Source: Paludibacteraceae bacterium (GTDB taxonomy: Bacteria; Bacteroidota; Bacteroidia; Bacteroidales; Paludibacteraceae). Taken from it: 64,000 nucleotides of DNA. Of this stretch, positions 1-53,360 are shown in pieces. The notes under the pieces were generated by a model. That model made no database searches. It saw only the letters and a program-made list of their open reading frames with translations, and was not told where the DNA came from. Where the stretch lies: NCBI GenBank assembly GCA_024399965.1, contig JAKSNJ010000007.1, positions 2,436 through 66,435 of the forward strand. The letters are read 5' to 3'. Each line of letters starts with the position of its first letter. The stretch's first letter is position 1. The position numbers and the translations under genes were made by a program.

Positions 1-929
1 TCCATGATGGCAAATACTTCGGCTTTCGTTTCAGCGCGAAGGAGGGCAATACGGGTTTGCTTGAAATCGTATAGTCCCTTGAAAACAGGGCTATTGGCAA
101 AGTGACGACGGGAGTGGACGATGCCTTTGCGCTCGTCGCCAATCCACTCAATCGAGCGCTCGACATGATCCTTGAGGATAGAGACGCACCACTGCATGGT
201 GCGAGGTTGCAAGTTGCAGGTTGCAGGTTGCAGGTAATTTTTAATGTCCTCGAATATCCATGGGCAGCCAAAGGTGGCACGTCCAATCATGATAGCATCA
301 ACACTGTAGCGGTCAAAACACTCTTTGGCCCGTTCGGGGGTGGTGACATCGCCGTTACCGATGATAGGAATATGCATACGTGGGTTGTTCTTGACCTCGC
401 CGATGAGGGTCCAATCGGCTTCGCCGGTGTACATCTGTGCGCGTGTACGTCCGTGAATGGCCAGTTCCTGAATACCACAATCCTGCAAGGCCTCTGCCAA
501 ATCGACGATGATGATTTCGTCACTATTCCAGCCCAAGCGCGTCTTGGCCGTGACGGGCGTATGCACAGCATTGACGACGGCGCGTGTGATGTCAAGCATA
601 CGAGGCACATCGCGCAGCAAGCCGGCTCCAGCACCCTTGCCGGCGACTTTTTTTACAGGACAGCCGAAGTTAATATCTATAAAATCCGGGCGCGCCTGCT
701 CCACTATACGCGCTGCCTCAGCCATCGACTCGGCATCGCGTCCATAGATCTGGATAGCCACCGGCCGCTCGGCATCGGAGATAGTCAGTTTGCGCGTAGC
801 AGCCGACACGTCGCGTACGAGTGCATCGGCATTGATGAACTCCGAATAGACGCGGTCAGCACCAAAGCGTTTGCACAAAAGTCGAAACGCGGGGTCGGTA
901 ACATCCTCCATGGGAGCGAGGTAGAGCAT
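1..929 (-). CDS. dus: tRNA-dihydrouridine synthase (Dus family). The 3' end runs off the left edge of the window.
   Basis: Absent from the ORF track because there is no in-window stop. Reading the reverse complement from the ATG at 929 gives MLYLAPMEDVTDPAFRLLCKRFGADRVYSEFINADAL..IQIYGRD..INFGCPVKKV..TAKTRLGW..IHGRTRAQ..IGNGD..IGRATFGCPWIF, a Dus TIM-barrel pattern. I checked the frame for stops over 780-929. The 102..1136 + ORF is its antisense shadow. Confidence 0.85.
   Translation of the reverse strand, partial: MLYLAPMEDVTDPAFRLLCKRFGADRVYSEFINADALVRDVSAATRKLTISDAERPVAIQIYGRDAESMAEAARIVEQARPDFIDINFGCPVKKVAGKGAGAGLLRDVPRMLDITRAVVNAVHTPVTAKTRLGWNSDEIIIVDLAEALQDCGIQELAIHGRTRAQMYTGEADWTLIGEVKNNPRMHIPIIGNGDVTTPERAKECFDRYSVDAIMIGRATFGCPWIFEDIKNYLQPATCNLQPRTMQWCVSILKDHVERSIEWIGDERKGIVHSRRHFANSPVFKGLYDFKQTRIALLRAETKAEVFAIM
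204..235 (-). repeat. Heptamer micro-array, about 4.5 units of AGGTTGC/AAGTTGC (GCAACCT on the coding strand), in frame inside dus
   Basis: Direct reading: aggttgc aagttgc aggttgc aggttgc aggt. It encodes YLQPATCNLQPRT in Dus. Confidence 0.9.
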
Positions 930-933
930 GGGA

Positions 934-982
934 ATTTGGAGTTTAGAGGTTGGAAGTTGGAGTTTGGAAGTTGGAAGTTAGA
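934..982 (-). repeat. Heptamer micro-array, 7 degenerate units (atttgga gtttaga ggttgga agttgga gtttgga agttgga agttaga)
   Basis: Direct reading. On the minus strand it forms the last codons of tadA (..SLTSNFQTPTSNL) and the leader immediately 5' of the dus ATG. Confidence 0.9.
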
Positions 983-1425
983 GAGGGGCGTTTGGAGGCG
1001 AAGAACGAGGTCATACGTTGGGCACAGTCGTCGGCGAGTATTCCCGATGAAACGGCGCATTTTGGATGGAGTGCCTGTGGGGCAAAAGAAGAAAAACCAC
1101 GTTTGGGGTCGGACGCACCATAGACCAATCGGCTAACCTGTGCCCACCCGATGGCACCGGCACACATGACACACGGTTCGACGGTCACGTAGAGGGTGCA
1201 ATCGGTGAGGTACTTACCGCCGAGTGTCTGCGTTGCAGCGGTGATGGCTTGCATCTCGGCATGGGCGGTAACGTCCTGCAGGGTTTCGGTAAGGTTATGT
1301 CCGCGACCGATGACTTGGTTACGGCAGACGATGACACACCCGACAGGTACTTCGTCCTGCAGAAGCGCTTTATCTGCCTCCGCAAGGGCTAAAGACATAT
1401 ATCGTTCGTCATCGGACATCGGCAT
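943..1425 (-). CDS. tadA: tRNA-specific adenosine deaminase (CDA-fold)
   Basis: HAEMQAI and TVEPCVMCAGA zinc-deaminase motifs. The ATG at 1425 shares one base with the malQ TGA. The track start at 1428 is a TTG. Confidence 0.9.
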   Translation of the reverse strand: MPMSDDERYMSLALAEADKALLQDEVPVGCVIVCRNQVIGRGHNLTETLQDVTAHAEMQAITAATQTLGGKYLTDCTLYVTVEPCVMCAGAIGWAQVSRLVYGASDPKRGFSSFAPQALHPKCAVSSGILADDCAQRMTSFFASKRPSLTSNFQTPTSNL

Positions 1426-4043
1426 CAACGTACAGAGGTCAGTTTTTGTATCTTCTCGTTCAGGGCTTTTTGCTTCATCAGGTCTTCCACCGAGATGTGC
1501 ATACGGTAGTTCCAGAAGTGACGCGGATTGCTGGGCAAGTTGATGCGCTCACCTTGCGCGTCTTTGAGTCGTACATCACCATCCACGGCGAGCCAGTCTT
1601 GCAGGGGCAGAATGACCCACATAGCAGGGCTATACATGTGTTGATTAACCACGAACTCGGCAATCTCGGGCGTCATCTGTTGAGGCGCTTCACCCCACCA
1701 GCCCATCTGCTCGTTGTAGAAACGTTGGGTGGTGTTGCGGTCCTCTTCCCACCAAGCACGCAACGGATTGGTGTCGTGTGTACCCGTGGTGCAGACGCTG
1801 AGATAAGGTGCATCGGCAGGGTGTGCAAACTTGATGGTGGGGTCCTTCGGCATACGCTGAATCTCCAAACTGAGTATCTGCAATTCGTGCATTACTTGCG
1901 GTACGCACTCAGGCACCATACCAAGGTCTTCGCCGCAGCAGAGCATACCGGTGGAGTTGATGAGCGTAGGAATCTTGCTCATGGCACTCTGACGCCAGAA
2001 CTCGGTATGACGGCGGAAGAAATAGTCGTTGTAGATACCCATGATGATATCTTTTTGGTCTTGGTACAGTTCGTTGAAACTGTGACTTTGGTAGATGCTG
2101 ATACGCGGATGCACAAGGTATTCATCTTTTTGGTCTCGCACGAAGAGCACTTCGCAATGCAGGTAGATGAGCCCGTTCATCAGGTTCAGGCGCTGCTCCT
2201 CGGGCAAGTTCTTACCCTCGCCCTGCTCAAAGTAGGTTTGTACCTTGAGTTGCGTATCAAACTCCGGACGGAAATAATAGACATAGCCATCGTTAGTGAG
2301 GAGGAAATGCTCCTTGGCATATTCGGTGTCAAAACCGAAGACATCGCCGAGGAAATTGCTACGGATATAGGGCTTGGTCATACGGTCCTCGTCCAACTTA
2401 ACGCCCATGTTCCACAGGTCTTGCATACTGTAAGGCAGGGCAGGACAGAAGTGTCCGCACAGTCCCCAGACGTCGCTCTTGCGCATCTGCCAAATACGGA
2501 ACATACCCAAGATATGGTCGATACGGTAGGCGTCAAAGTAGTCCGCCATCTTACTGAAGCGGCGTTTCCACCAGTCGTAGTTATCCTTGGCCATCACGTC
2601 CCAGTTGTAGGTGGGGAAACCCCAGTTCTGACCGCGTGCATCGAAATCATCAGGCGGCGCACCGGCACTGGCCTTGAGGTTAAACAGTTCGGGGTATTCG
2701 TACGCATCGACGCTGTCGGGGTTGATACCGATAGGTATATCTCCCTTCATCGCCACACCGATGGAATGGGCATACGCCACGGCGTCCGCCAACTGACGGT
2801 CGGCATGGAACTGCAGGAAGCAATAGAAGTCCTTGGGCTGCTTGTCGCGCTTGCTCATAAAGGCGGCGTAGGAATCCAACCAGTTCTTGCTCTTTTTGTA
2901 GAACGTTTTATATTCGGCAGAAGCCAAAACGGTATCTTTCTCGGCCTTGAAGATGGCTTTGAAATACTTCATCTTCTCATCATAAACGACCTGATAATCG
3001 GCAATGGGTTTGGCATTGAACTCCTGCTTGGTGGCCTCGTATTTCTTTTTCTGCGCAGGTGTGAGTTTGCCCATCTTCTCTATGTTAATATAGATAGGAT
3101 GCAGGGCAAAGACACTAACGGGGCTGTAGGGATAACTGTCGCGATTGGTGTGGGTGAGAGTGGTGTCGTTGATAGGCAGGGTCTGAATCATCTTCATGCC
3201 GGTCAGCACAGCCCAGTCTGCCATCTTCTTAAGGTCTTGGAACTCACCTATACCAAAGCCCTCGTCGGTGCGTAAACTGAAGACAGGTATCGCCACACCG
3301 GCTCCTTTCCAACGGGGTTGGGTACGACGGAAATTGCGGTCATTCTGCATGATAACCATACCCGACTGAACGCCCCACACGTGGCGGTTCTCGCCATATT
3401 CGATATCGACAATGCGGTTGGTCGCCTTGTCGTAGATGACATATTTATACTCAAAAATCTCATTGGCCTTGACGTGGATATTGGCACGCCAAACGGGGAA
3501 GTCGTGGTCGTCCATCACCACTTTTTTTGCCTCGTTCCAATTGCCTAATTCGGGTATATTACCCATGATAGCAACCCCTTGGCAGGGCAAAATCTGCGGC
3601 AAGTCGATACTGAAACGGACGTTGGACTTAGCCATGGCAGCAGCGGTTTTCAGTTGGCCACTCTGGGGCTCGCGATGGAACAGCGACTTGAGGAAAGCGG
3701 TGGTGTAGAAGGCCTTTTCGTAATCGACGGCTTGCCAATAGTCGTGGACGGACACCTGCTTATCGGCAGCGCGCAAGGCAATGGTACGGGGCTGACCTTC
3801 CTCGTAGATATACTGCCCATTCTCCAAACGAATGGCATAGTTGTAACAGAACTCGCCCCCCTTGGACTCGATGTCAGCAGTCCAGCAATCCTGCCCCTGA
3901 CAGGACATGTAATAAGGCGTTTGCTCGGTGAATACGGCTTTTTCTCCCTTTTGAATCAGACACAGTTGCTGACCAAAAACAGTACGATAATTAACTTGAA
4001 AATGTACGGTCATGGTATTACTCTTGTTTATTATAGTTGTCAT
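1425..4043 (-). CDS. malQ: 4-alpha-glucanotransferase (GH77 amylomaltase) with N-terminal starch-binding (CBM20-like) repeats
   Basis: 872-aa ORF. N-terminal segments TVHFQVNY.. and NVRFSIDLP..GNIPELGNWN resemble CBM20. The C-terminal part is GH77-like (GAPPDDFDARGQNWGFP, YRIDHILG, CGEDLG). An alternative ATG at 4013 would remove the overlap with the upstream gene. Confidence 0.85.
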   Translation of the reverse strand: MTTIINKSNTMTVHFQVNYRTVFGQQLCLIQKGEKAVFTEQTPYYMSCQGQDCWTADIESKGGEFCYNYAIRLENGQYIYEEGQPRTIALRAADKQVSVHDYWQAVDYEKAFYTTAFLKSLFHREPQSGQLKTAAAMAKSNVRFSIDLPQILPCQGVAIMGNIPELGNWNEAKKVVMDDHDFPVWRANIHVKANEIFEYKYVIYDKATNRIVDIEYGENRHVWGVQSGMVIMQNDRNFRRTQPRWKGAGVAIPVFSLRTDEGFGIGEFQDLKKMADWAVLTGMKMIQTLPINDTTLTHTNRDSYPYSPVSVFALHPIYINIEKMGKLTPAQKKKYEATKQEFNAKPIADYQVVYDEKMKYFKAIFKAEKDTVLASAEYKTFYKKSKNWLDSYAAFMSKRDKQPKDFYCFLQFHADRQLADAVAYAHSIGVAMKGDIPIGINPDSVDAYEYPELFNLKASAGAPPDDFDARGQNWGFPTYNWDVMAKDNYDWWKRRFSKMADYFDAYRIDHILGMFRIWQMRKSDVWGLCGHFCPALPYSMQDLWNMGVKLDEDRMTKPYIRSNFLGDVFGFDTEYAKEHFLLTNDGYVYYFRPEFDTQLKVQTYFEQGEGKNLPEEQRLNLMNGLIYLHCEVLFVRDQKDEYLVHPRISIYQSHSFNELYQDQKDIIMGIYNDYFFRRHTEFWRQSAMSKIPTLINSTGMLCCGEDLGMVPECVPQVMHELQILSLEIQRMPKDPTIKFAHPADAPYLSVCTTGTHDTNPLRAWWEEDRNTTQRFYNEQMGWWGEAPQQMTPEIAEFVVNQHMYSPAMWVILPLQDWLAVDGDVRLKDAQGERINLPSNPRHFWNYRMHISVEDLMKQKALNEKIQKLTSVR

Positions 4044-4803
4044 TCATTTTAGATGTTCCGGTTCCAAACCGGTTTTGTTTGCAAAAATACAAAATTTTTT
4101 CTAAACTTGCAAATAAAACAGGAATTATTGTATTAAAAATCCAAATTATGGACACGGCAATGGCGATGGCGGGCACGTTGGCGGTGTATTGTCCGAAAAT
4201 CAGTACCGCCCAGCCGCCTTTTATGGCTACATCTGCCACAGGCAGTGAGGGCATGATGCTCACGCACACGTAATAGACGGCTATGCTGCTAACGGCTTGC
4301 CACGGCGTGAGGGCAATGCCCACGAAGCGCAGCACCGCCCACAGTTGCACACCCCATACCAGATAGCGGACGACGGTCCAGAACAGGACGGGAAGCCATT
4401 TGCGCCAGTCACGCAACCATGCCTTGCCCTGCATTTTGAGTTGTTCACGGTCGATGTCCAGCCCTGCACTCACGAGGCGTGCCGGTATGTCTCCTGCCCG
4501 ATAGGGCGTGATGAACCCTGCCACCATACCTATCAGCACCTGATGCCAACTGTCCGAGAGCGTGATACTCTTCCACCCACGCAAGAGCCACTGCCACCGC
4601 ACGGTCTCAGCCCACAGTTGCACCGGAATGAGCAGCCCTGCCACCAGCAAGACCGTTCCTTCCCACGCACCTGCCTGACGGAAATACAGACCTATGTCGG
4701 CGTAGTGGCGATAGGTGGCAAGGCGGTAGATGAGGTAGCCAAAAGCCGCCACACTGACCAGCATACCGGCCCACTGAAGATATGTGAATTTACGGTGTGT
4801 CAC
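4018..4803 (-). CDS. Polytopic membrane protein, flippase-like / lysylphosphatidylglycerol-synthase TM-region family
   Basis: 261-aa hydrophobic ORF with several predicted TM helices. The family call is by general resemblance only. Confidence 0.5.
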   Translation of the reverse strand: MTHRKFTYLQWAGMLVSVAAFGYLIYRLATYRHYADIGLYFRQAGAWEGTVLLVAGLLIPVQLWAETVRWQWLLRGWKSITLSDSWHQVLIGMVAGFITPYRAGDIPARLVSAGLDIDREQLKMQGKAWLRDWRKWLPVLFWTVVRYLVWGVQLWAVLRFVGIALTPWQAVSSIAVYYVCVSIMPSLPVADVAIKGGWAVLIFGQYTANVPAIAIAVSIIWIFNTIIPVLFASLEKILYFCKQNRFGTGTSKMNDNYNKQE

Positions 4804-4844
4804 TATAACGCAAAAAGCAACCGCTGCGGTTGCTTTTCCAATTC

Positions 4845-5705
4845 TTAGCCAAGATACGTCTTTAAGATACGGCTCTTGGACGATGCTTTCAGTTTGCGAA
4901 TGGCTTTCTCCTTGATTTGGCGCACACGCTCCCGAGTGAGATGGAAATCATCGCCAATCTCTTCCAATGTCTTTTCCGGCATTCCTATACCGAAGAACTT
5001 ACGCAAGATGTCGGCTTCGCGTGCCGTGAGGGTGTTGAGTGCGCGGTCAATCTCGCGAGAAAGGGACTCGTTAATCAGTCCGCGGTCGGCATTGGGGCTG
5101 TCCTCGTTGGGCATGACATCAATCAGGCAGTTATCTTCGCCCTCCACAAAAGGTGCATCGACCGATACATGGCGGCCGGACATCTTGAGCGTGTCGGCAA
5201 TCTTGTCCACAGGCATGTCCAAAATCTCAGCCAGTTCCTCAGCAGACGGCTTACGCTCGTACTCCTGCTCAAAACGCTGGTAGGCCTTGTTAATCTTGTT
5301 CAACGAACCAACTTGGTTCAGGGGCAAACGCACGATACGTGACTGCTCTGCCAGCGCTTGTAAGATGGATTGACGAATCCACCACACAGCATAGGAAATA
5401 AACTTAAAACCCCTTGTTTCATCGAACTTTTCGGCGGCCTTGATAAGTCCCAGATTGCCCTCGTTAATCAGGTCGGGCAAACTTAAACCTTGGTTCTGAT
5501 ACTGCTTGGCAACCGAGACGACGAAGCGCAAGTTGGCACGAGTCAGACGCTCCAAAGCGGCACGGTCACCGTTGCGGATACGTCCTGCCAACTCAACCTC
5601 CTCCTCCACGGAGACCAAGTCCTCGCGACCTATCTCCTGAAGGTATTTATCCAAGGAGGCAGATTCACGATTGGTAATTGATTTAGTAATTTTGAGTTGT
5701 CTCAT
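4845..5705 (-). CDS. rpoD: Primary RNA polymerase sigma factor (sigma-70/SigA, short Bacteroidota type)
   Basis: Regions 2-4 are readable: [63 protein letters not shown]. Confidence 0.95.
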
Positions 5706-5723
5706 AATTATTCTTTTTTATTG

Positions 5724-5797
5724 TGATCCGGCCGGGATTCGAACCCGGGACCCACAGCTTAGAAGGCTGTTGCTCTATCCAACTGAGCTACCAGACC
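5724..5797 (-). tRNA. tRNA-Arg (anticodon UCU)
   Basis: The reverse complement GGTCTGG TA GCTC AGTTGGATA GAGC A ACAGC CTTCTAA GCTGT GGGTC CCGGG TTCGAAT CCCGG CCGGATC A folds as a 74-nt cloverleaf. The anticodon stem is perfect. GG is in the D loop and TTCGA in the T loop. CCA is not encoded. Confidence 0.92.
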
Positions 5798-5845
5798 TCG
5801 CGTCCGGCAAACGGACGCTTTTGTCAATCCCACTTTTTGGGGCTG

Positions 5846-5877
5846 CAAAGATACAAAAAAATTTTGAAATATACAAA
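5846..5877 (-). promoter_or_regulatory. Bacteroidota sigma-A promoter (TTTG-N20-TAtcTTTG) upstream of tRNA-Arg and rpoD
   Basis: Minus strand reads TTTGtatatttcaaaatttttttgTAtcTTTGcag. The -7 box is 5846..5853 and the -33 box is 5874..5877. Confidence 0.7.
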
Positions 5878-5883
5878 CTTTTT

Positions 5884-5918
5884 AAATGGAAAATGGAAAA
5901 ATGAGAATGGAGAATGGC
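5884..5918. repeat. Heptamer micro-array, 5 units (aaatgga aaatgga aaaatga gaatgga gaatggc)
   Basis: Direct reading. Intergenic. Confidence 0.85.
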
Positions 5919-5986
5919 TTTTTTTCTGAGTTATGACCGCAGGGCACAAGGCAGAACGCCGAAATATACAGAAAATACAGGTTTAG

Positions 5987-6137
5987 TCACCCCCTCATCG
6001 TTCGTGTATCTCGAGACGAACGATATACGAACGATGAACGAACGATGAACGGAGAGTGAATTTTGGGTGCAAATAGGTTCTTTAGCGGCATTGATAACCA
6101 TCGACCATGTTATGTTGATGTTATGTTGCAAACAGGG
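5987..6137 (+). repeat. Intergenic repeat family, copy A (internally deleted relative to copies B and C)
   Basis: It shares tcatcgttcgtNtatctcgagacNaacgatatacgaacgatgaacgaacgNtgaacggagagtgaattttgggtg and ..atgttatgttgatgttatgttgcaaacagg with 43480..43710 and, inverted, 53135..53360. Confidence 0.9.
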
Positions 6138-6260
6138 AGAATGAGCGCTTTACTGGTTTGCCAACTTCCGACCCTCAAGAAAAAAAAGACAAATGTGGAA
6201 CAGCAGGTATATTAAAGGTAAGCAACAGGCAATAGAAGTACTATGCTGCCAAAGTAGAGA

Positions 6261-6296
6261 TTAAAAAACTACGCTACATGTAGGTGTGGCGTAGTT
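6261..6296 (-). terminator. Rho-independent-type terminator with no assigned gene
   Basis: Minus strand reads aactacgc-(14 nt)-gcgtagtt followed by ttttttaa. There is no annotated CDS upstream of it within 180 nt. Confidence 0.5.
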
Positions 6297-6478
6297 AGTT
6301 ATGTCTTATAAAGATAATTACTCTGGTCGATTCCTTGATAGGTTCTCTGTGCTGAACATTGTATATTTAATCTTGTCTGTATTTGGATTGTACTCAAATT
6401 AATGAAAACGCAAAGAAAGGACAAATAAATAAACTTTCCCATCGGAAACAGAACAAACAAATTTTTCTGCATTTTGCA

Positions 6479-6516
6479 TAAAAAATTGCCTATCTATTTC
6501 AACGTAGATAGGCAAT
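6479..6516 (-). terminator. Rho-independent terminator downstream of trxA
   Basis: Minus strand reads attgcctatcta-cgttgaaa-tagataggcaat followed by tttttt, about 45 nt after the trxA stop. Confidence 0.8.
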
Positions 6517-18294: not shown

Positions 18295-21200
18295 ATGAAC
18301 AAATTTAACGAGTACAAACAGTTGAATCTGCCGGAGATGAGCAAAACTATCTTGGCAGAATGGGAGAAAGAACATTTGGCCGAGAAGGCCGTACATGGTG
18401 AAGAACCGAAACCCAAAGGGCAATTTATCTTTTTTGAGGGTCCGCCTTCTGCCAACGGTATGCCGGGTATTCACCACGTATTGGCACGTACCATCAAAGA
18501 TACGTTCTGCCGCTTCAAGACCATGCAGGGCTATGAGGTACGCCGTAAAGCCGGTTGGGACACTCACGGACTGCCTGTCGAATTGGGCGTAGAGAAAATG
18601 CTAGGCATTACCAAAGAGGATATCGGCAAGAAAATCAGCGTGGACGAATACAATGCCGCTTGCCGTCGCGAGGTGATGAAATACACCAAAGAGTGGACCA
18701 ACCTGACCCAGCAAATGGGTTATTGGGTGGACCTCGAAAATCCGTATATCACATACGATAACAAGTATATCGAAACCCTTTGGTACCTGCTCAAAGAACT
18801 CTACAAAAAGGGCTATCTCTACAAGGGTTACACCATTCAGCCCTATTCGCCGGCTGCCGGCACGGGACTGAGTAGCCACGAGTTGAACCAACCCGGCTGC
18901 TATCGTGACGTGAAAGATACAACCTGCACGGCGCAGTTCCGCATCAAAGAGAGCAGTATCATCGTGCAAAAAGAGAACCTGCCCCTCTATGCGTTAGCGT
19001 GGACCACTACCCCGTGGACCTTGCCCAGCAACACCGCCCTTTGTGTTGGTCCCAAGATAGATTACGTCGTTGTCAAGGGCGAAAACCCCTACACCAACCA
19101 ACCCGCCCTTTACCTGTTGGCAGAGGCACGCCTGAGTGCATACGCCAAAGAATTAGGTGAGGCACCCGAAGTGCTTTACCGCTGCAAAGGTACGGAATTG
19201 GAAGGTTTGGAATATGACCAACTCATACCCTTTGCCACCCCGATGCGTGGCGAGAACGATGGCACTCCGTTCCGCATCATCTTAGGTGACTACGTTACCA
19301 CCGAAGACGGTACGGGTATCGTACATATTGCCCCCACCTTTGGTGCAGACGATGCAATGGTGGCGAAGAAAGCCGGCATTCCGGGTATGACGTTCCTCAC
19401 CAAGAAAGGCGAATTGCGTCCTATGGTCGATATGACCGGCAAGTTCTTCCTCATGGACGATTTGGACGAGACCTTTGTGGCAAAGCATATCAACCAAGAT
19501 CTCTACACTCAATGGCAGGGTCAGTGGGTAAAAAATGCCTATGATCCCCAGTTCACCATTGACGGCAAATACGATGAATCGGCAGCACAAAAAGCCGAAA
19601 ATTTGGATATTCGCCTCTGCATTATGCTCAAGCAGGACGGTCGCGCTTTCCGTATTGAGAAGCACGTACACACCTACCCTCACTGCTGGCGCACGGACAA
19701 GCCCGTCCTCTATTATCCCTTGGACAGTTGGTTTATTCGTTCCACCAAAACCCGCGAGGACATGATTCGCCTCAATAACACCATTCATTGGCAACCCGAA
19801 TCCACCGGTACAGGACGCTTCGGCAAGTGGCTCGAAAACCTCAACGACTGGAACCTGTCCCGCTCGCGTTACTGGGGTACGCCCTTGCCTATCTGGCGAA
19901 CGGAAGACGGTCAGGAGGAACTGTGTATCGGTTCCATCAAGGAACTTTTTGAGGAAATAGACAAGTCCATCGCAGCCGGTTTCATGACCGCCTATCCGTG
20001 GCCCAAACACGTGGTAGGCGACTACAGCAAGGCCAACTACGACCCGTCAGTCATCGACCTGCACCGCCCCTATGTGGACAGCATTATTCTTGTCAGTCCG
20101 TCGGGCAAACCGATGAAACGCGAACTCGACCTCATCGATGTGTGGTTTGACTCGGGTGCGATGCCCTATGCTCAGGCGCACTTGCCTTTTGAGAACATGG
20201 ACGCACCGCGCACTGCCGACTTCATCTGCGAAGGTGTGGACCAAACACGTGGCTGGTTCTTCACCTTGCACGCTATTCACACGATGTTGGAAGGCACGGT
20301 GGCATATAAAAACGTCATTTCCAACGGACTCGTTCTTGACAAGAACGGCAACAAAATGTCCAAACGTCTGGGCAATGCCGTGGACCCCTTTGAGGCGCTG
20401 AATAAATACGGTGCCGACGCTGTACGTTGGTATATGCTGACCAACTCGTCTCCGTGGGAAAATCTCAAATTCGACCCTGAAGGCGTGGACGAGATTCGCC
20501 GCAAGTTCTTTGGTACCCTTTACAATACCTACGGATTCTTTGCCCTGTACGCCAATGTAGATGGGTGGCAGCCCACTTTGTCAGACGGGGTTTTGCCGAC
20601 GGCGAACCGACGGCGAATCAACCCGTGCTACTCCCACGACACACCCACGGACACCCCATCGTTCGCACTGACAGAAATTGATAAGTGGATACTTTCCAAA
20701 CTGAATTCGCTTGTCAAGGAGGTAACAGAGGATTACGAGCAATACGAGCCCACCAAGGCAGGGCGCGCTATCTCGGACTTTGTGCAAGACGACCTCAGTA
20801 ACTGGTACGTGCGCCTTAACCGCAAACGTTTCTGGGGCGGCAAGATGGACGAGGACAAGCAAGCCGCCTACGCGACACTCTACACCTGCCTCACCACCGT
20901 AGCACAACTCATGGCACCCAACGCACCGTTCTACGCCGACCGCCTCTATCGCGACTTAACCGGCACAACCGTGCATGAGAGCGAATGGCCAACAGCCGAC
21001 ACGGCACTCATTAACAAGAATTTAGAGCACCAAATGGCACTCGCACAGCAAGCCACTTCGATGATTCTATCGCTCCGCAAACGTGCCGAGAAGAACGTGC
21101 GTCAGCCCCTGCAGAAAGCCGTTATTCCTGCTCCGGATATAGAGACGGTGGAGGCACTCAAGCATGTGGAGAACCTGATTAAGTCGGAGGTGAATATCAA

Positions 21201-43452: not shown

Positions 43453-43487
43453 GTGCATTGTGCATTGTCCACTGCCAACCACCACCC
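43453..43487 (+). repeat. Heptamer micro-array (gtgcatt gtgcatt gtccact gccaacc accaccc)
   Basis: Direct reading. The first about 20 nt recur at 49661..49688 inside a CDS. Confidence 0.8.
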
Positions 43488-43710
43488 CTCTTATCGTTCG
43501 TCTATCTCGAGACCAACGATATACGAACGATGAACGAACGGTGAACGGAGAGTGAATTTTGGGTGTTTTTTGGGGGCAAAAATTTTGGTTTTGGCAGTGA
43601 TTGAGTGGTCGCGATGTGGTCACGAAATACACAGGCGCTTTACTCGCCCCTTTTTTTAGCCGTATTGCCACCCACCGACTATGTTATGTTGATGTTATGT
43701 TGCAAACAGG
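43480..43710 (+). repeat. Intergenic repeat family, copy B (full length)
   Basis: Near-identical to the reverse complement of 53135..53360 over about 230 bp. It shares both ends with copy A. Confidence 0.92.
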
Positions 43711-49141: not shown

Positions 49142-50913
49142 TGGCTATTGACCTGCCAATATCAAAAAGTATAGCGAACCGTCTATTGATGTTGCAAGCT
49201 ATTCACGGAGACCCCCTCTTGGAGGTCTCTTGTGATATGCCCGACGATGTCCGCCTCATTCATGACGTATTAAGCCACCTATCACCTACCTGCTACAACC
49301 TACCACCTACAACCTATCACCTCTCCAATTGTGGCACGGCTATGCGTTTCCTGACGGCTTATTGTGCGCAGTTAGAGGGCTGTGAAGTCGTCTTGGACGG
49401 AGATGAACGTATGCACCACCGGCCGATAGGGCAATTGGTAGATGCTCTCGTGCGCGCAGGGGCGCATATAGAATATATAGGTGAGCAGGGCTATCCGCCT
49501 TTGCGTATTATGGGGCGTGCGTTGCCTCGTACTGCGATTACATTGCTGCACCCGCAATCGTCACAATTTGTAAGCGCATTGCTCTTGATGGGCTTTCCTG
49601 TAACGACCGACTGCCGTTCACCGTATATCGCTATGACCCAACACATCATAGCCAACTACCGTGCATTGTGCATTGCCAACCGTCCATTGGAGAAGGATTG
49701 GTCAGCTGCGGCTTTTTGGTATGAGTACGTGGCGTTGCATGGTGGCGAATTGGAGTTACCGGGGTTGAGTGCGCATAGTGTACAGGGAGATAAGGTAGTG
49801 GCAGACCTGTTCCGTCCGTTGGGGGTGGCAACCACCTACACCGATACAGGTATTCGAATACGCCGAACGGGTAATGTGAATGGCTGCCCAAGAGTGGTGG
49901 ATTTTACGGACTGTCCGGACCTTTACCCGGCAGTGGCTATTACTTATAGGCAGTTGGCTAAACCGTTGATAGCACGTGGCACAGCGTCCCTGCGTATTAA
50001 GGAAAGCGACCGCATCAAGGCCGTTCAGCAGCAAACGACCTACCACGACCACCGTATAGCCATGGCCTTGCTGGCTGCCGACCTGCCTTGCGACGATAAG
50101 GAATGTGTTTCCAAGTCCTACCCTCGTTTTGTAGAACAACTGTCAACTGTCAACTCTCAATTCTCAACTGTCATTCCGCGCCGAGGAATTAACGACGAGG
50201 GCAAGGGTAAGAAATATGCCTTGCATAAACTCATTTCTGCTGCCACTACCGACTATGTGTGGCTGATGGACGATGATGTTCTCCCAGCCCCCATTCTCCA
50301 TTCTCCATTCTCCATTCTCCATTTTCCTGCCGACCTATATATTTTGCCCCTGAAGATGGTGGAGGGACGGTCTTTATTGGAGCGTTTGCAGGTGGCTGAA
50401 TATGCAGCCATTCAGGAGGTGACAATGCGTACTGCGAAGCGGGGCAAGGCAGTGATGTGCAGTGGGGCGAACTTAATTGTGCGGAGAGAAAGGTGGTTGG
50501 AGAGTTATGCTGATTTGCATACGGACATACCCAGTGGCGATGATATGTTTTTGTTGGAGTCGTTTCGCCGTCGCGGTTTGCAGATAAGTGTGATTGACCG
50601 CCCCGAATATACGGCTACGGTTACTGCTATACCTTCGTGGCGTGCGTTTTTTAGGCAACGTATGCGTTGGGCAGGCAAGGCGCCTCACTATACGGACCGT
50701 TATATCATTCGTTACGGGGCTGTTGTGCTGGGGGCTAATATGCTGCAACTGCTTTGTCCGCCGGTGTTGCTGGTGAAGTTCCCGTATGAATATCGTCTCA
50801 TCAAAAAAAGAGACCCGCAGGTCTCTTTTTGGATTGCTCTGTTGTTAGAGGTGTTATACCCCTATTACATGTTATTAGTCCTCTTGGGAGGGCTCTTCCG
50901 TCGCAGCTGGTAA
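49138..50913 (+). CDS. aroA: Single ORF joining a 3-phosphoshikimate 1-carboxyvinyltransferase-like (AroA) region (about aa 1-335) to the C-terminal two-thirds of a GT2 glycosyltransferase
   Basis: AroA-like: SKSIANRLL, NCGTAMRFL, RMHHRPIG.LVDAL, SSQFVSALLL, SPYIAMT, LRIKESDR, DHRIAMA, SKSYP.F. GT2-like: GKGKKYAL...., LMDDDV, QRMRWAGK, and TM helices. Heptamer arrays lie at 49275, 49661, 50138 (the junction) and 50292. Confidence 0.7.
   Translation: MMAIDLPISKSIANRLLMLQAIHGDPLLEVSCDMPDDVRLIHDVLSHLSPTCYNLPPTTYHLSNCGTAMRFLTAYCAQLEGCEVVLDGDERMHHRPIGQLVDALVRAGAHIEYIGEQGYPPLRIMGRALPRTAITLLHPQSSQFVSALLLMGFPVTTDCRSPYIAMTQHIIANYRALCIANRPLEKDWSAAAFWYEYVALHGGELELPGLSAHSVQGDKVVADLFRPLGVATTYTDTGIRIRRTGNVNGCPRVVDFTDCPDLYPAVAITYRQLAKPLIARGTASLRIKESDRIKAVQQQTTYHDHRIAMALLAADLPCDDKECVSKSYPRFVEQLSTVNSQFSTVIPRRGINDEGKGKKYALHKLISAATTDYVWLMDDDVLPAPILHSPFSILHFPADLYILPLKMVEGRSLLERLQVAEYAAIQEVTMRTAKRGKAVMCSGANLIVRRERWLESYADLHTDIPSGDDMFLLESFRRRGLQISVIDRPEYTATVTAIPSWRAFFRQRMRWAGKAPHYTDRYIIRYGAVVLGANMLQLLCPPVLLVKFPYEYRLIKKRDPQVSFWIALLLEVLYPYYMLLVLLGGLFRRSW
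49275..49323 (+). repeat. Heptamer micro-array, 7 units (ccaccta tcaccta cctgcta caaccta ccaccta caaccta tcacctc), in frame in the AroA-like region
   Basis: Direct reading. It encodes ..HLSPTCYNLPPTTYHLS.. immediately before the NCGTAMR motif. Confidence 0.9.
49661..49688 (+). repeat. Heptamer micro-array (gtgcatt gtgcatt gccaacc gtccatt), in frame in the AroA-like region
   Basis: Direct reading. It shares ccgtgcattgtgcattg with the intergenic array at 43451..43468. Confidence 0.8.
50138..50172 (+). repeat. Heptamer micro-array, 5 units (aactgtc aactgtc aactctc aattctc aactgtc), at the AroA/GT2 junction
   Basis: Direct reading. It encodes EQLSTVNSQFSTV. Confidence 0.9.
50292..50326 (+). repeat. 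Heptamer micro-array, 5 units (cattctc x4, cattttc), in frame in the GT2-like region
   Basis: Direct reading. It encodes PILHSPFSILHFP. Confidence 0.9.
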
Positions 50914-53134: not shown

Positions 53135-53360
53135 CCTGTTTGCAACATAACATCAACATAACATAGTCGATGGTTGGCAATACGGCTAAAAAGGGGCGAG
53201 TAAAGCGCGAGTGTATTTCGTGACCACATCGCGACCACTCAATCACTGCCAAAACCAAGGATTTTGCACCCCAAAAACACCCAAAATTCACCCTCCGTGT
53301 ATCGTTCGTTCATCGTTCGTATATCGTTGGTCTCGAGATAGACGAACGATGAGAGGGTGA
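53135..53360 (-). repeat. Intergenic repeat family, copy C (full length, inverted relative to A and B)
   Basis: The reverse complement aligns with 43480..43710 over about 230 bp with scattered substitutions. Confidence 0.92.

What the first reader, a model, noticed from the sequence alone, without database searches (positions are those of the whole stretch)
204..982. Heptamer arrays form a loop inside Dus, the C-terminal tail of TadA and the dus leader
**Seen in sequence**
- The array at 204..235 is translated in frame within the Dus CDS as YLQPATCNLQPRT, directly after the conserved PWIF..IK.YL segment.
- The array at 934..982 supplies the last roughly 13 codons of tadA (SLTSNFQTPTSNL) and all but 4 nt of the spacer before the dus ATG.

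**Established knowledge**
- In Dus enzymes this position is the linker between the TIM barrel and the helical tRNA-binding domain.
- TadA proteins normally end shortly after the ..FF..R helix.

**Inference**
- Array sequence has been absorbed into two housekeeping proteins without breaking the frame.
- For a 7-bp unit this needs either whole multiples of three units or compensating partial units.
Basis: partly seen in the sequence, partly recalled or inferred. Interest (0 to 1): 0.6.

Follow-up and report, generated by a model that had tools for sequence, protein, structure and literature searches.

The report
Heptamer repeats written into Dus and TadA
Two short 7-base tandem repeats in an uncultured gut Paludibacteraceae bacterium are translated, one as the hinge of the tRNA enzyme Dus and one as a 14-residue tail of TadA that also spaces the two genes; they are two of about 200 such repeats in this genome, an already known but unexplained kind of bacterial repeat.

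Summary

**The two arrays**
- **Array 204-235.** It has 4.6 copies of CTGCAAC on the coding strand and lies in frame in dusB. It did not add a loop. It overwrote the canonical 8-residue hinge (xTGELLPx) with 9 array-coded residues (QPATCNLQP), a net gain of one codon. An AlphaFold model puts it in the coil between the barrel and the helical domain.
- **Array 931-983.** It has about 7 G-free units. It starts right after TadA's last conserved codon (KR) and supplies a 14-residue tail, the TAA stop and the 13-nt spacer up to the dus ATG.

**Local context**
- In 57 of 60 same-genus genomes a 636-aa HD-domain gene is present, normally between tadA and dus. It is missing here.
- It is also missing in G044, which may be the closest relative. 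There tadA and dus are 5 nt apart with no array.

**Genome-wide picture**
- The genome has 206 heptamer arrays, against 0-5 in shuffles.
- 143 of them are G-free on one strand, drawn from 27 related units.
- 32 fill whole operon spacers, and 44 lie deep inside predicted genes, including IleS, RecQ, MutS2, UvrA and FolC. In the seven checked against relatives, the site varies in length.

**Verdict**
This is a new member of the known heptamer-repeat class (STRR, long simple sequence repeats, TAACTGA type). The scan has already reported the same phenomenon in at least eight other Bacteroidales genomes.

The parts
204..235 (-). In-frame heptamer array in dus: CTGCAAC x4.6 on the coding strand. It encodes (L)QPATCNLQP, which replaces the canonical xTGELLPx inter-domain hinge.
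   Evidence: TRF; translation; codon alignment with 17 relatives; linker column frequencies in 196 Dus sequences; coil 234-244 in the AlphaFold model.
1..929 (-). dusB coding sequence (tRNA dihydrouridine synthase B). The full protein is 321 aa. The gene runs off the window start and ends 36 nt beyond it on the contig.
   Evidence: TIGR00737 at 296.5 bits, cut-off 293.3; full length read from the contig; best solved relative 6EI9 DusB, E 3.9e-53.
927..929 (-). dus start codon ATG. It is the first possible start after the G-free array, which cannot contain ATG, GTG or TTG. Dus begins M-LYLAPMED, whereas relatives have 3-5 more N-terminal residues.
   Evidence: Sequence; alignment; G044 has MTKYPIYLAPMED.
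930..942 (-). 13-nt untranslated spacer between the tadA stop and the dus start (ACTCCAAATTCCC). All but its last base (930) lies inside the TRF-called array.
   Evidence: The 86-nt junction RNA is essentially unstructured, minimum free energy -0.6 kcal/mol.
931..983 (-). G-free heptamer array of about 7 units on the coding strand: ACTTCCA ACTTCCA AACTCCA ACTTCCA ACCTCTA AACTCCA AATTCC.
   Evidence: TRF. Its necklace AACTTCC belongs to the single 1-mismatch network that holds 139 of 143 strongly skewed arrays.
943..987 (-). Array-encoded C-terminal tail of TadA (PSLTSNFQTPTSNL, codons 946-987) and its TAA stop (943-945, from the unit junction ACCTC-TAA-ACTCC).
   Evidence: Same-genus TadA proteins end at the basic pair after FF or at most 6 residues later. 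TadA matches in 60 genus genomes end at query residues about 147-160, most at 148-153.
943..1419 (-). tadA coding sequence (tRNA adenosine-34 deaminase), 158 aa from the ATG at 1419. An upstream TTG at 1428 is also possible.
   Evidence: NF008113 at 126.3 bits, below its 150-bit equivalog cut-off. Best solved relatives are TadA structures: 2B3J at 1.1e-35 and 1Z3A. The 158-aa form is the one on record.

Best explanation
**What they are.** The two arrays are local members of a genome-wide family of dispersed heptanucleotide tandem repeats. This is the same kind as the long simple sequence repeats of Mrazek et al. (2007), cyanobacterial STRRs and the TAACTGA repeats of Beggiatoaceae. Here nearly all units use only A, C and T on one strand.

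**How they most likely arise (inferred).**
- Arrays arise and change length by replication slippage in 7-nt steps.
- They draw on a lineage-specific vocabulary of related units.
- Through repeated expansion and imprecise deletion they overwrite neighbouring DNA until purifying selection stops them.
- They therefore persist only where sequence is free to vary: operon spacers, protein termini, and indel-tolerant loops or linkers. Inside genes only frame-preserving versions survive.

**What is shown at this locus.**
- Inside dus the array replaced the 8-residue hinge between the TIM barrel and the helical domain with 9 array-coded residues. The net change is +3 nt, so the frame is kept.
- At the tadA-dus junction the gene that normally lies between the two is gone.
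- The array there spans exactly from TadA's last conserved codon to the dus ATG.
- It replaces the old stop codon and gives TadA a 14-residue tail and a new TAA.
- It overwrites the first few codons of dus and serves as an unstructured 13-nt leader.

**Function.** No function of the arrays themselves is needed to explain the data.
For: **Family membership**
- There are 206 merged arrays with at least 3 copies in 1.66 Mb, against 0-5 per class of period 5-9 in Markov shuffles.
- 143 arrays have at most one G (or C) on one strand. They use 27 of about 312 possible G-free necklaces, and 139 of them form one 1-mismatch network.
- The dus unit CTGCAAC is one change from CTACAAC. That unit encodes LQPTTYN in FeoB and other proteins.
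- The same unit occurs at 7.7 copies in G044, the relative most similar to G000 in MutS2, UvrA and FolC.

**Placement set by tolerance**
- 41% of arrays lie inside predicted genes although 87% of the genome is coding.
- 45 arrays end within -9 to +20 nt of a start codon; 4.7 are expected by chance.
- 74 arrays carry or adjoin a stop codon; 11.8 are expected.
- 32 arrays do both, like tadA-dus; 2 are expected.

**In-gene arrays sit at length-variable sites**
- In Dus, RecQ, an ABC ATPase, MutS2, UvrA, IleS and FolC the array lies where relatives vary in length.
- In Dus (+1 aa), the ABC ATPase (+4), RecQ (+31) and MutS2 (+17) the net gain is smaller than the array, so ancestral residues were replaced. 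In UvrA the array replaces a linker that differs in every relative.

**Youth and turnover**
- G044 lacks the arrays at the MutS2 (residues 335-355), IleS, FolC and tadA-dus sites.
- By my coordinate estimate, G044 has a different unit at a site near residue 640 of MutS2, where G000 also has an array. This correspondence was not aligned.

**Structure**
- The array-coded Dus residues fall within coil 234-244, and the mean pLDDT of residues 231-240 is 70 against about 90 on either side.

**Reality of the junction**
- G044 is 98% complete and its contig is 183 kb. It has tadA and dus 5 nt apart and no HD gene.
Against: **The generating mechanism is inferred, not shown.**
- No strain or read data could be obtained.
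- Pure local slippage does not by itself explain why 140 loci share one small unit vocabulary.
- Evidence for copying between loci is weak. 35 array pairs share an impure 28-mer, against a null mean of 19.5 and a null maximum of 31. At 35 nt there is no excess.

**Limits of the counts.**
- My gene calls are a home-made hexamer model, so the inside, edge and intergenic counts are approximate.
- The genome is an 83%-complete metagenome bin, so absence of the HD gene is 'not found', not proven.

**A leader role is not excluded.** The tenfold enrichment next to start codons could also reflect a function in translation.
Confidence: 0.7

Rival explanations
1. The arrays are functional cis-elements. 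They would be binding sites for a single-strand nucleic-acid-binding protein (S1, Csp or KH type) or unstructured translation leaders, kept by selection next to start codons, as MacGregor (2015) proposed for TAACTGA repeats. On this reading the dus leader array tunes dus translation, and the coding copies are by-products.
For: - 45 arrays end within -9 to +20 nt of a predicted start codon, against 4.7 expected. Most lie 0-5 nt from it.
- The junction RNA is unstructured, with a minimum free energy of -0.6 kcal/mol over 86 nt. From general knowledge, that suits Shine-Dalgarno-independent initiation in Bacteroidota.
- The shared unit vocabulary would fit recognition by one factor.
- PMC4679880 makes the same proposal for Beggiatoaceae.
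Against: - Start-adjacent arrays face either way: the G-poor strand is sense in 16 and antisense in 19. An RNA-level signal should be oriented.
- 84 arrays lie inside predicted genes, and 44 of the strongly skewed ones lie at least 30 codons deep.
- G044 lacks the arrays at the tadA-dus junction and at the MutS2 (335-355), IleS and FolC sites, so those genes do not need them.
- Units differ between species at the same gene boundaries.
Confidence: 0.12
2. The arrays are written by an active, sequence-specific process. This could be templated patch repair at DNA breaks or frequent ectopic conversion from a pool of arrays. It would replace whatever lay at the lesion, so each array marks a past repair or recombination event.
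For: - Where it could be measured (Dus, ABC ATPase, RecQ, MutS2), the arrays replace ancestral sequence rather than simply adding to it.
- One small vocabulary of units is used at about 140 loci and is shared with G044 but not with more distant genus members.
- There is a slight excess of array pairs sharing impure 28-mers: 35 against a null maximum of 31.
Against: - No reverse transcriptase domain was found in the assembled genome (the genome is 83% complete).
- There are no conserved flanking motifs or target-site duplications.
- Long shared unit orders are not in excess at 35 nt.
- The ancestral-type spacer CCAAC in G044 and local CAACC strings could have seeded the units in place.
- If the HD loss is shared with G044, which carries no array at that junction, the loss predates the array.
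Confidence: 0.13
3. Assembly artefact. The metagenome assembler collapsed or mis-joined sequence through shared low-complexity repeats. This would create the tadA-dus junction, and perhaps the in-frame arrays, in silico.
For: - The genome is a 44-contig bin at 83% completeness.
- Long arrays sit at or near several contig ends, for example C41 76343-76432 and C17 20058-20272.
- The HD gene, if flanked by arrays, would give a contig of about 1.9 kb. That is shorter than the shortest contig in this bin, 2,591 bases.
Against: - The junction array is only 58 nt and imperfect, so ordinary final k-mers and reads span it with unique flanks (inference).
- Both flanks of the Dus array are colinear Dus sequence of the right length.
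- Dozens of arrays keep frame in conserved genes.
- Similar arrays occur in many independent assemblies, including complete isolate genomes such as Segatella copri.
- G044 independently shows tadA directly followed by dus, with no HD gene in a 98%-complete genome.
Confidence: 0.05

Closest known systems
TAACTGA heptamer direct repeats of marine Beggiatoaceae, some cyanobacteria and five Bacteroidetes (MacGregor 2015, PMC4679880)
   Same: - The unit is 7 nt, with 2 to dozens of tandem copies at more than 100 dispersed loci.
- Most arrays lie directly upstream of start codons with no Shine-Dalgarno sequence.
- Some overlap the stop codon of the upstream gene, and a few are translated inside ORFs.
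- The mechanism is unknown.
   Different: - The units differ. Here they form an A/C/T-only family (TCTCAAY, TCTAAAC, CCTACAA, among others) instead of a single TAACTGA.
- Arrays occur in both orientations relative to genes.
- In Beggiatoaceae the in-ORF copies are peripheral and mostly in hypothetical proteins. Here at least 44 lie deep inside predicted genes. All ten read in full are conserved housekeeping proteins: IleS, RecQ, MutS2, UvrA, FolC, FeoB, a topoisomerase, an ABC ATPase, a sulfatase-like protein and a glycosyltransferase. Dus carries a further, less strongly skewed array.
Long simple sequence repeats with 5-11-nt units in prokaryotes (Mrazek et al. 2007, as summarised in PMC4679880) and cyanobacterial STRR heptamers
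   Same: - Heptanucleotide units are the dominant class.
- Their distribution across bacterial groups is sporadic.
- Polymerase slippage is the proposed source.
- Units whose length is not a multiple of three are disfavoured in coding DNA.
   Different: - The host lineage is uncultured gut or rumen Paludibacteraceae. I found no paper in the held library describing such repeats there.
- Composition is strictly three-letter.
- Many frame-preserving coding copies exist despite the 7-nt unit.
Tandem repeats of Borg elements that create disordered regions in proteins (PMC9879509)
   Same: Rapidly evolving tandem repeats arise independently at many sites and are tolerated in frame. They add low-complexity segments to proteins.
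   Different: - From my own knowledge of that paper, which I did not open, Borg coding repeats have unit lengths divisible by three and lie on an archaeal extrachromosomal element.
- Here the unit is 7 nt and the host is a bacterial chromosome.
- The inserts replace existing loops.
Rickettsia palindromic elements (in-frame mobile insertions; from my own knowledge, not checked in a paper here)
   Same: A dispersed repeat family is found in frame inside many unrelated housekeeping genes, at surface positions.
   Different: - Those elements are 100-150-bp palindromic units of fixed length.
- The arrays here are non-palindromic, cannot fold, vary in length, and have no conserved ends.

Membership tests
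Dispersed heptanucleotide tandem repeats (long simple sequence repeats / STRR-like / TAACTGA-like) | Head-to-tail copies of a 7-nt unit | tested here: met
   TRF: 204-235 has period 7 and 4.6 copies; 931-983 has period 7 and 7 copies.
Dispersed heptanucleotide tandem repeats (long simple sequence repeats / STRR-like / TAACTGA-like) | Many dispersed arrays per genome, far above chance, with period 7 dominant | tested here: met
   344 of 1288 TRF rows have period 7. 220 rows have at least 3 copies, against 0-3 in three Markov shuffles.
Dispersed heptanucleotide tandem repeats (long simple sequence repeats / STRR-like / TAACTGA-like) | A small set of related units recurs at unrelated loci | tested here: met
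   143 strongly skewed arrays use 27 necklaces. 139 of them form one 1-mismatch network. In necklace terms the largest component holds 23 necklaces, against a random mean of 10 and a maximum of 22.
Dispersed heptanucleotide tandem repeats (long simple sequence repeats / STRR-like / TAACTGA-like) | Enriched between genes, often directly before start codons or over stop codons | tested here: met
   59% of arrays lie outside genes or on gene edges in an 87%-coding genome. 45 are start-adjacent (4.7 expected) and 74 stop-adjacent (11.8 expected). The gene calls are my own crude model.
TAACTGA repeats / cyanobacterial STRR in the strict sense | The specific unit sequence (TAACTGA; STRR units, from my own knowledge CCCCAGT, TTGGTCA, CAACAGT) | tested here: not met
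   The units here are AATTCTC, AAACTCT, ATTCTCC, AACTATC, AACTCTC, ACCACCT and others. The dus unit is CTGCAAC and the junction unit is ACTTCCA.
Phase-variable contingency locus (simple sequence repeat switch) | The repeat lies in the promoter or 5' coding region of a surface, restriction-modification or other dispensable gene, so that unit changes switch it on or off | tested here: not met
   The arrays sit in the hinge of DusB, the C-terminus of TadA, and in IleS, RecQ, MutS2 and UvrA. The repeats are imperfect (78-92% matches).
Phase-variable contingency locus (simple sequence repeat switch) | Copy number varies between strains or within a population | not testable with these tools
The best metagenome relative is 84% identical.
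tRNA dihydrouridine synthase B (TIGR00737) | Score above the curated equivalog cut-off, with the residues that are invariant across the aligned orthologues kept | tested here: met
   296.5 bits against a cut-off of 293.3. The invariant columns of the 45-sequence alignment include C90, K129, R131, H159 and R161.
tRNA adenosine(34) deaminase TadA (NF008113) | Score above the curated equivalog cut-off | tested here: not met
   126.3 bits against a cut-off of 150. The protein still has the HAE and PCVMC zinc motifs. Its best solved relatives are TadA structures (2B3J, 1.1e-35). It also matches the tadA position next to the HD gene in most genus genomes.
In-frame palindromic mobile elements (Rickettsia palindromic element type) | Fixed-length palindromic element with conserved ends | tested here: not met
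   No secondary structure: -0.6 kcal/mol, z-score -0.03. No conserved flanks. Array lengths range from about 21 to 215 nt.

The most novel reading that the evidence does not exclude
A lineage-specific, sequence-directed process actively writes a small vocabulary of G-free heptamers over any unconstrained DNA. The process could be templated repair or frequent ectopic conversion among arrays, rather than passive slippage. If so, protein hinges, loops, termini and operon spacers in these gut Bacteroidales are continually re-drafted by one mutational engine, and array positions map where essential proteins tolerate change.
Probability: 0.15. Interest if true: 0.7.

Novelty: new member of a known kind. 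Interest (0 to 1): 0.35.

Why it matters
- **Non-triplet repeats can remodel proteins.** A 7-nt repeat can become a permanent, translated part of conserved enzymes. Here it replaces a moderately conserved inter-domain hinge of DusB, which is YLxTGELLP in E. coli DusB as well as in most Bacteroidales, and it extends TadA.
- **A natural tolerance map.** Across the genome the arrays show where essential proteins (IleS, RecQ, MutS2, UvrA, FolC) accept arbitrary low-complexity sequence.
- **Annotation hazards.** Stop and start codons at operon junctions in this lineage can be supplied or erased by repeats. This creates tails, shortens N-termini and may fuse genes, all of which are hazards for metagenome bins.
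- **Limits.** The kind of repeat is already known, and the scan has met it repeatedly in Bacteroidales. This locus is a clear worked example, not a discovery of a new system.

Tried and rejected
**Strain comparison**
- The exact-sequence cluster look-up found only singletons.
- The metagenome and genome scans found nothing closer than 84-87% Dus identity.

**Array as the scar of the HD-gene deletion**
- I first read the junction array this way.
- I weakened that reading when G044 showed the same tadA-dus adjacency with a 5-nt spacer and no array. G044 is the most similar relative in MutS2, UvrA and FolC, although not in Dus or TadA. If the loss is shared by descent, it predates the array.

**Replication-strand or transcription-strand bias**
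- The G-poor strand shows no link with local GC skew (Fisher p 0.62).
- It shows only a weak link with gene strand: 83 same, 60 opposite, p 0.065.

**Other tests**
- Reverse-transcriptase generator: no RVT_1 domain in the assembly.
- Conserved flanks or target-site duplications: none.
- Recent copy-and-paste between arrays: only a slight excess of shared impure 28-mers, and none at 35 nt.
- Known RNA family in 1-6500: only a tRNA at 5724-5797.

**Errors corrected along the way**
- My first crude gene finder missed tadA and was replaced by a hexamer model.
- A first regular expression excluded all 'LYLAPMED' Dus sequences and was corrected.
Full report
**1. The observation**

Tandem Repeats Finder on the window calls two arrays at the stated places.
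- 204-235: period 7, 4.6 copies, 92% matches.
- 931-983: period 7, 7 copies, 78% matches.

On the coding (-) strand the first reads CTGCAAC CTGCAAC CTGCAAC TTGCAAC CT. The second reads ACTTCCA ACTTCCA AACTCCA ACTTCCA ACCTCTA AACTCCA AATTCC.

The - strand carries two genes.
- **dus.** It starts at the ATG at 929 and is 321 aa long once read on into the contig. It matches TIGR00737 DusB at 296.5 bits against a cut-off of 293.3.
- **tadA.** It spans 1419/1428 to 943. It matches NF008113 at 126.3 bits, below that model's 150-bit cut-off. It has the HAE and PCVMC motifs, and its best solved relatives are TadA structures.

The first array is translated in frame as ...PWIFEDIKNYL-QPATCNLQP-RTMQWCV.... 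The second begins directly after the TadA codons ...FFASKR. It encodes PSLTSNFQTPTSNL, supplies the TAA stop (943-945), and fills all but the last base of the 13-nt spacer before the dus ATG (927-929).

Chance is excluded. The genome has 220 period-7 rows with at least three copies, and three third-order Markov shuffles gave 0-3.

**2. The organism and the wider phenomenon**

The window lies on contig C42 of a 1.66-Mb, 44-contig, 83%-complete genome with 47% G+C. Its nearest relatives are metagenome-assembled 'Paludibacteraceae bacterium' and uncultured Bacteroidales genomes from horse faeces, ruminants and human gut.

Period 7 is the dominant tandem-repeat class, with 344 of 1288 rows. After merging there are 206 arrays with at least 3 copies.
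- 143 have at most one G (or one C) on one strand.
- Those 143 use only 27 of roughly 312 possible G-free necklaces.
- 139 of them form a single one-mismatch network. The commonest units are AATTCTC (32 arrays), AAACTCT (27), ATTCTCC (14), AACTATC (11) and AACTCTC (10).

The junction unit (necklace AACTTCC) belongs to that network. The dus unit CTGCAAC is one change from CTACAAC, which elsewhere encodes LQPTTYN. It also occurs at 7.7 copies in G044.

Similar arrays with other units are common around dus in many Bacteroidales assemblies. These include complete isolate genomes, at 7-37 arrays per 100 kb of sampled loci.

**3. Where arrays sit**

I used my own hexamer gene model (1220 genes, 87% coding). 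Its counts are approximate.
- 84 arrays lie inside predicted genes, 53 on gene edges and 69 between genes.
- 45 end within -9 to +20 nt of a start codon, against 4.7 expected.
- 74 contain or adjoin a stop codon, against 11.8 expected.
- 32 do both and so fill an entire spacer between co-directional genes, against 2 expected. The tadA-dus junction is one of these 32.

Orientation does not point to a strand-specific cause.
- It is not tied to the downstream gene: the G-poor strand is sense in 16 start-adjacent arrays and antisense in 19.
- It is not tied to GC skew.
- Inside genes the G-poor strand is sense in 60 and antisense in 20. I read this as selection against stop codons.

44 strongly skewed arrays lie at least 30 codons inside genes. 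The ten I read in full are IleS, RecQ, FolC, FeoB, MutS2, UvrA, a topoisomerase, an ABC ATPase, a sulfatase-like protein and a glycosyltransferase. They carry peptides such as LNSQFSTLNSQLST, LQPTTYNLQPTTY and NGEWRMENGEWRM.

**4. The Dus array is a replacement, not an added loop**

In 196 aligned Dus sequences the segment after PWIF..YL is normally x-T-G-E-x-L-P-P. The frequencies are T 56%, G 67%, E 55% and each P 55%. E. coli DusB (6EI9) has YLDTGELLPP there. The 30-residue window around it has its modal length of 29 in 137 of 195 sequences; here it is 30.

Codon alignment shows 8 canonical codons replaced by 9 array codons, from the conserved YL to the conserved R(T/S)M. The frame is therefore kept through a net change of +3 nt, although the array is 32 nt long.

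An AlphaFold model built on a 45-sequence alignment (mean pLDDT 86.6) gives helix 225-233, coil 234-244 and helix 245-263. The mean pLDDT of residues 231-240 is 70, against about 90 on either side. This confirms a linker between the barrel and the helical domain.

In the family this linker and a loop after residue 137 are the two insertion hot spots, with 20 and 21 of the 196 sequences respectively. Same-genus species carry other repeat-derived inserts at these spots.

**5. Other coding arrays behave the same way**

I compared each protein with five relatives.
- **RecQ:** about +31 aa for a 35-aa array.
- **ABC ATPase:** +4 aa for a 15-aa array. G022 has a different 7-aa-periodic insert, SDTLYPISDTPFN, at the same spot.
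- **MutS2:** +17 aa for about 20.
- **UvrA:** the array replaces a linker that differs in every species.
- **IleS:** +4 aa. G009 has its own +5 insert there.
- **FolC:** +10 to +12 aa in a loop of variable length.

Arrays therefore occupy indel-tolerant sites. In Dus, the ABC ATPase, RecQ and MutS2, where the net change could be measured, they also overwrite some ancestral residues.

G044 is more similar to G000 than the other four genomes compared in MutS2 (76%), UvrA (84%) and FolC (73%). In IleS it ties with G013 at 73%, and in Dus (81%) and TadA (73%) other genomes are closer. It shares the unit vocabulary but lacks the arrays at the MutS2 (335-355), IleS and FolC sites. If G044 is the nearest relative, those arrays are young.

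**6. The tadA-dus junction**

In the closest relative by Dus identity (G009, 86%) the order is pcrB-like, tadA (146 aa, ending FFEEKR-stop), a 636-aa 7TM-HD gene, dus, then miaB. That locus has no tandem repeats.

The HD gene is present in 57 of 60 same-genus genomes, nearly always directly after tadA. It was not found anywhere in this genome.

G044 (98% complete) also lacks it. There the order is metG, tadA, dus, with TadA ending ...FFQSKR-TAA, then CCAAC, then ATG ACG AAA TAT CCG ATT TAT CTT.... The adjacency is therefore real and probably older than the array.

Relative to G044, the array in this genome replaced four things: the stop codon, the 5-nt spacer, the first codons of dus (MTKYPI becomes ML), and nothing of conserved TadA.

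Of the 34 same-genus loci read, 20 TadA proteins end exactly at the basic pair after FF and none runs more than 6 residues beyond it. The 14-residue tail here is the longest seen.

The junction RNA cannot fold: its minimum free energy is -0.6 kcal/mol over 86 nt. A G-free array cannot contain ATG, GTG or TTG, so the ATG at 929 is the first available start.

**7. Mechanism**

What is shown:
- Membership of a dispersed family.
- Placement limited by constraint.
- Replacement of ancestral sequence.
- Frame preservation.
- Absence of these arrays at the checked sites in G044.

What is inferred: arrays are generated and resized by replication slippage, as proposed for heptamer long simple sequence repeats (summarised in PMC4679880), with gradual overwriting of flanks.

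The shared vocabulary is not explained by slippage alone. I tested copying between loci and found only a small excess of shared impure 28-mers: 35 pairs against a null mean of 19.5 and a maximum of 31. There was none at 35 nt. There are no conserved flanks and no reverse transcriptase domain.

Local seeds are plausible. CCAAC in the G044 spacer is contained in the unit TTCCAAC. CAACC strings occur in the Dus linkers of relatives.

A leader function is possible, but it is weakened by the lack of orientation preference and by the absence of the arrays at the same sites in G044.

**8. Comparison with what is known**

The closest described systems are these.
- TAACTGA heptamer repeats (PMC4679880). 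These also abut start codons, overlap upstream stop codons and occasionally lie in ORFs.
- Heptamer long simple sequence repeats and cyanobacterial STRRs.

Five literature searches found no paper in the held library on such repeats in gut Bacteroidales.

The scan itself has already reported the same phenomenon in at least eight other Bacteroidales genomes, including in-frame copies in enzymes.

**9. Verdict**

This is a new member of a known kind. Interest is moderate to low. It is a clean, well-documented example of a 7-nt repeat overwriting a conserved enzyme hinge and building a gene junction. It is neither a new system nor new to this scan.

**Limits.** The gene model is my own. The genome is an incomplete bin.

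Noticed in passing
window 6016-6051, 20596-20617, 43515-43547, 53301-53328; genome contig C44:41697-43166: Period-11 tandem repeats are the second most enriched class in this genome, with 232 TRF rows. FolC carries a roughly 40-aa insert specific to this genome, GEPTANRRRTDSEPTVDRQSTDGRPTVEAY..., with an 11-aa period. This suggests that a second repeat family also enters coding DNA.
   Followed up: partly
L031, L032, L074, L076, L079 (dus of same-genus relatives): At both Dus hot spots (after residue 137 and in the hinge) relatives carry in-frame tandem units of about 16-18 nt. The core is CGGTCTTACAG or CGGTCTGTCAG, and the peptides are SYSVSGLTAER and GLTGEAG. This is a different repeat family using the same tolerant sites.
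   Followed up: partly
window 930-987 compared with L067 (G009) and L262 (G044): The 636-aa 7TM-HD (PgpH-like) gene that follows tadA in 57 of 60 genus genomes was not found in this genome or in G044, G012 and G047. In G044, which is 98% complete, tadA and dus are 5 nt apart.
   Followed up: yes
window 43453-43468, 49661-49675 and 56 other places in the genome: GTGCATT GTGCATT doublets (necklace AATGCAC) make up 58 TRF rows. They are not G-free and look like a separate short motif.
   Followed up: no
genome contig C3:44360-44445 (uvrA), C12:39592-39668, C1:41305-41375: Two arrays of different unit families, or of opposite skew, sit back to back. In UvrA the peptide NGEWRMENGERRMEKGEC is followed by SQFSTFNSQL, which is an inverted pair of arrays read in one frame.
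   Followed up: no
window 49189-50913: A 574-aa predicted ORF contains three heptamer arrays (49275-49322, 50137-50173, 50291-50327). I did not test whether it is one protein or two.
   Followed up: no
window 102-1136 (+): A 344-aa open frame runs antisense to dus and tadA. It stays open partly because the arrays carry no stop codon on that strand. My coding model ranks it below the two real genes, so it is probably spurious.
   Followed up: partly
window 1425-4043 compared with L067 and L262: The upstream neighbour of tadA differs in each genome: a 4-alpha-glucanotransferase-like gene (named from its sequence by eye, not tested) here, a pcrB-like gene in G009 and metG in G044. The locus is rearranged often in this genus.
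   Followed up: partly
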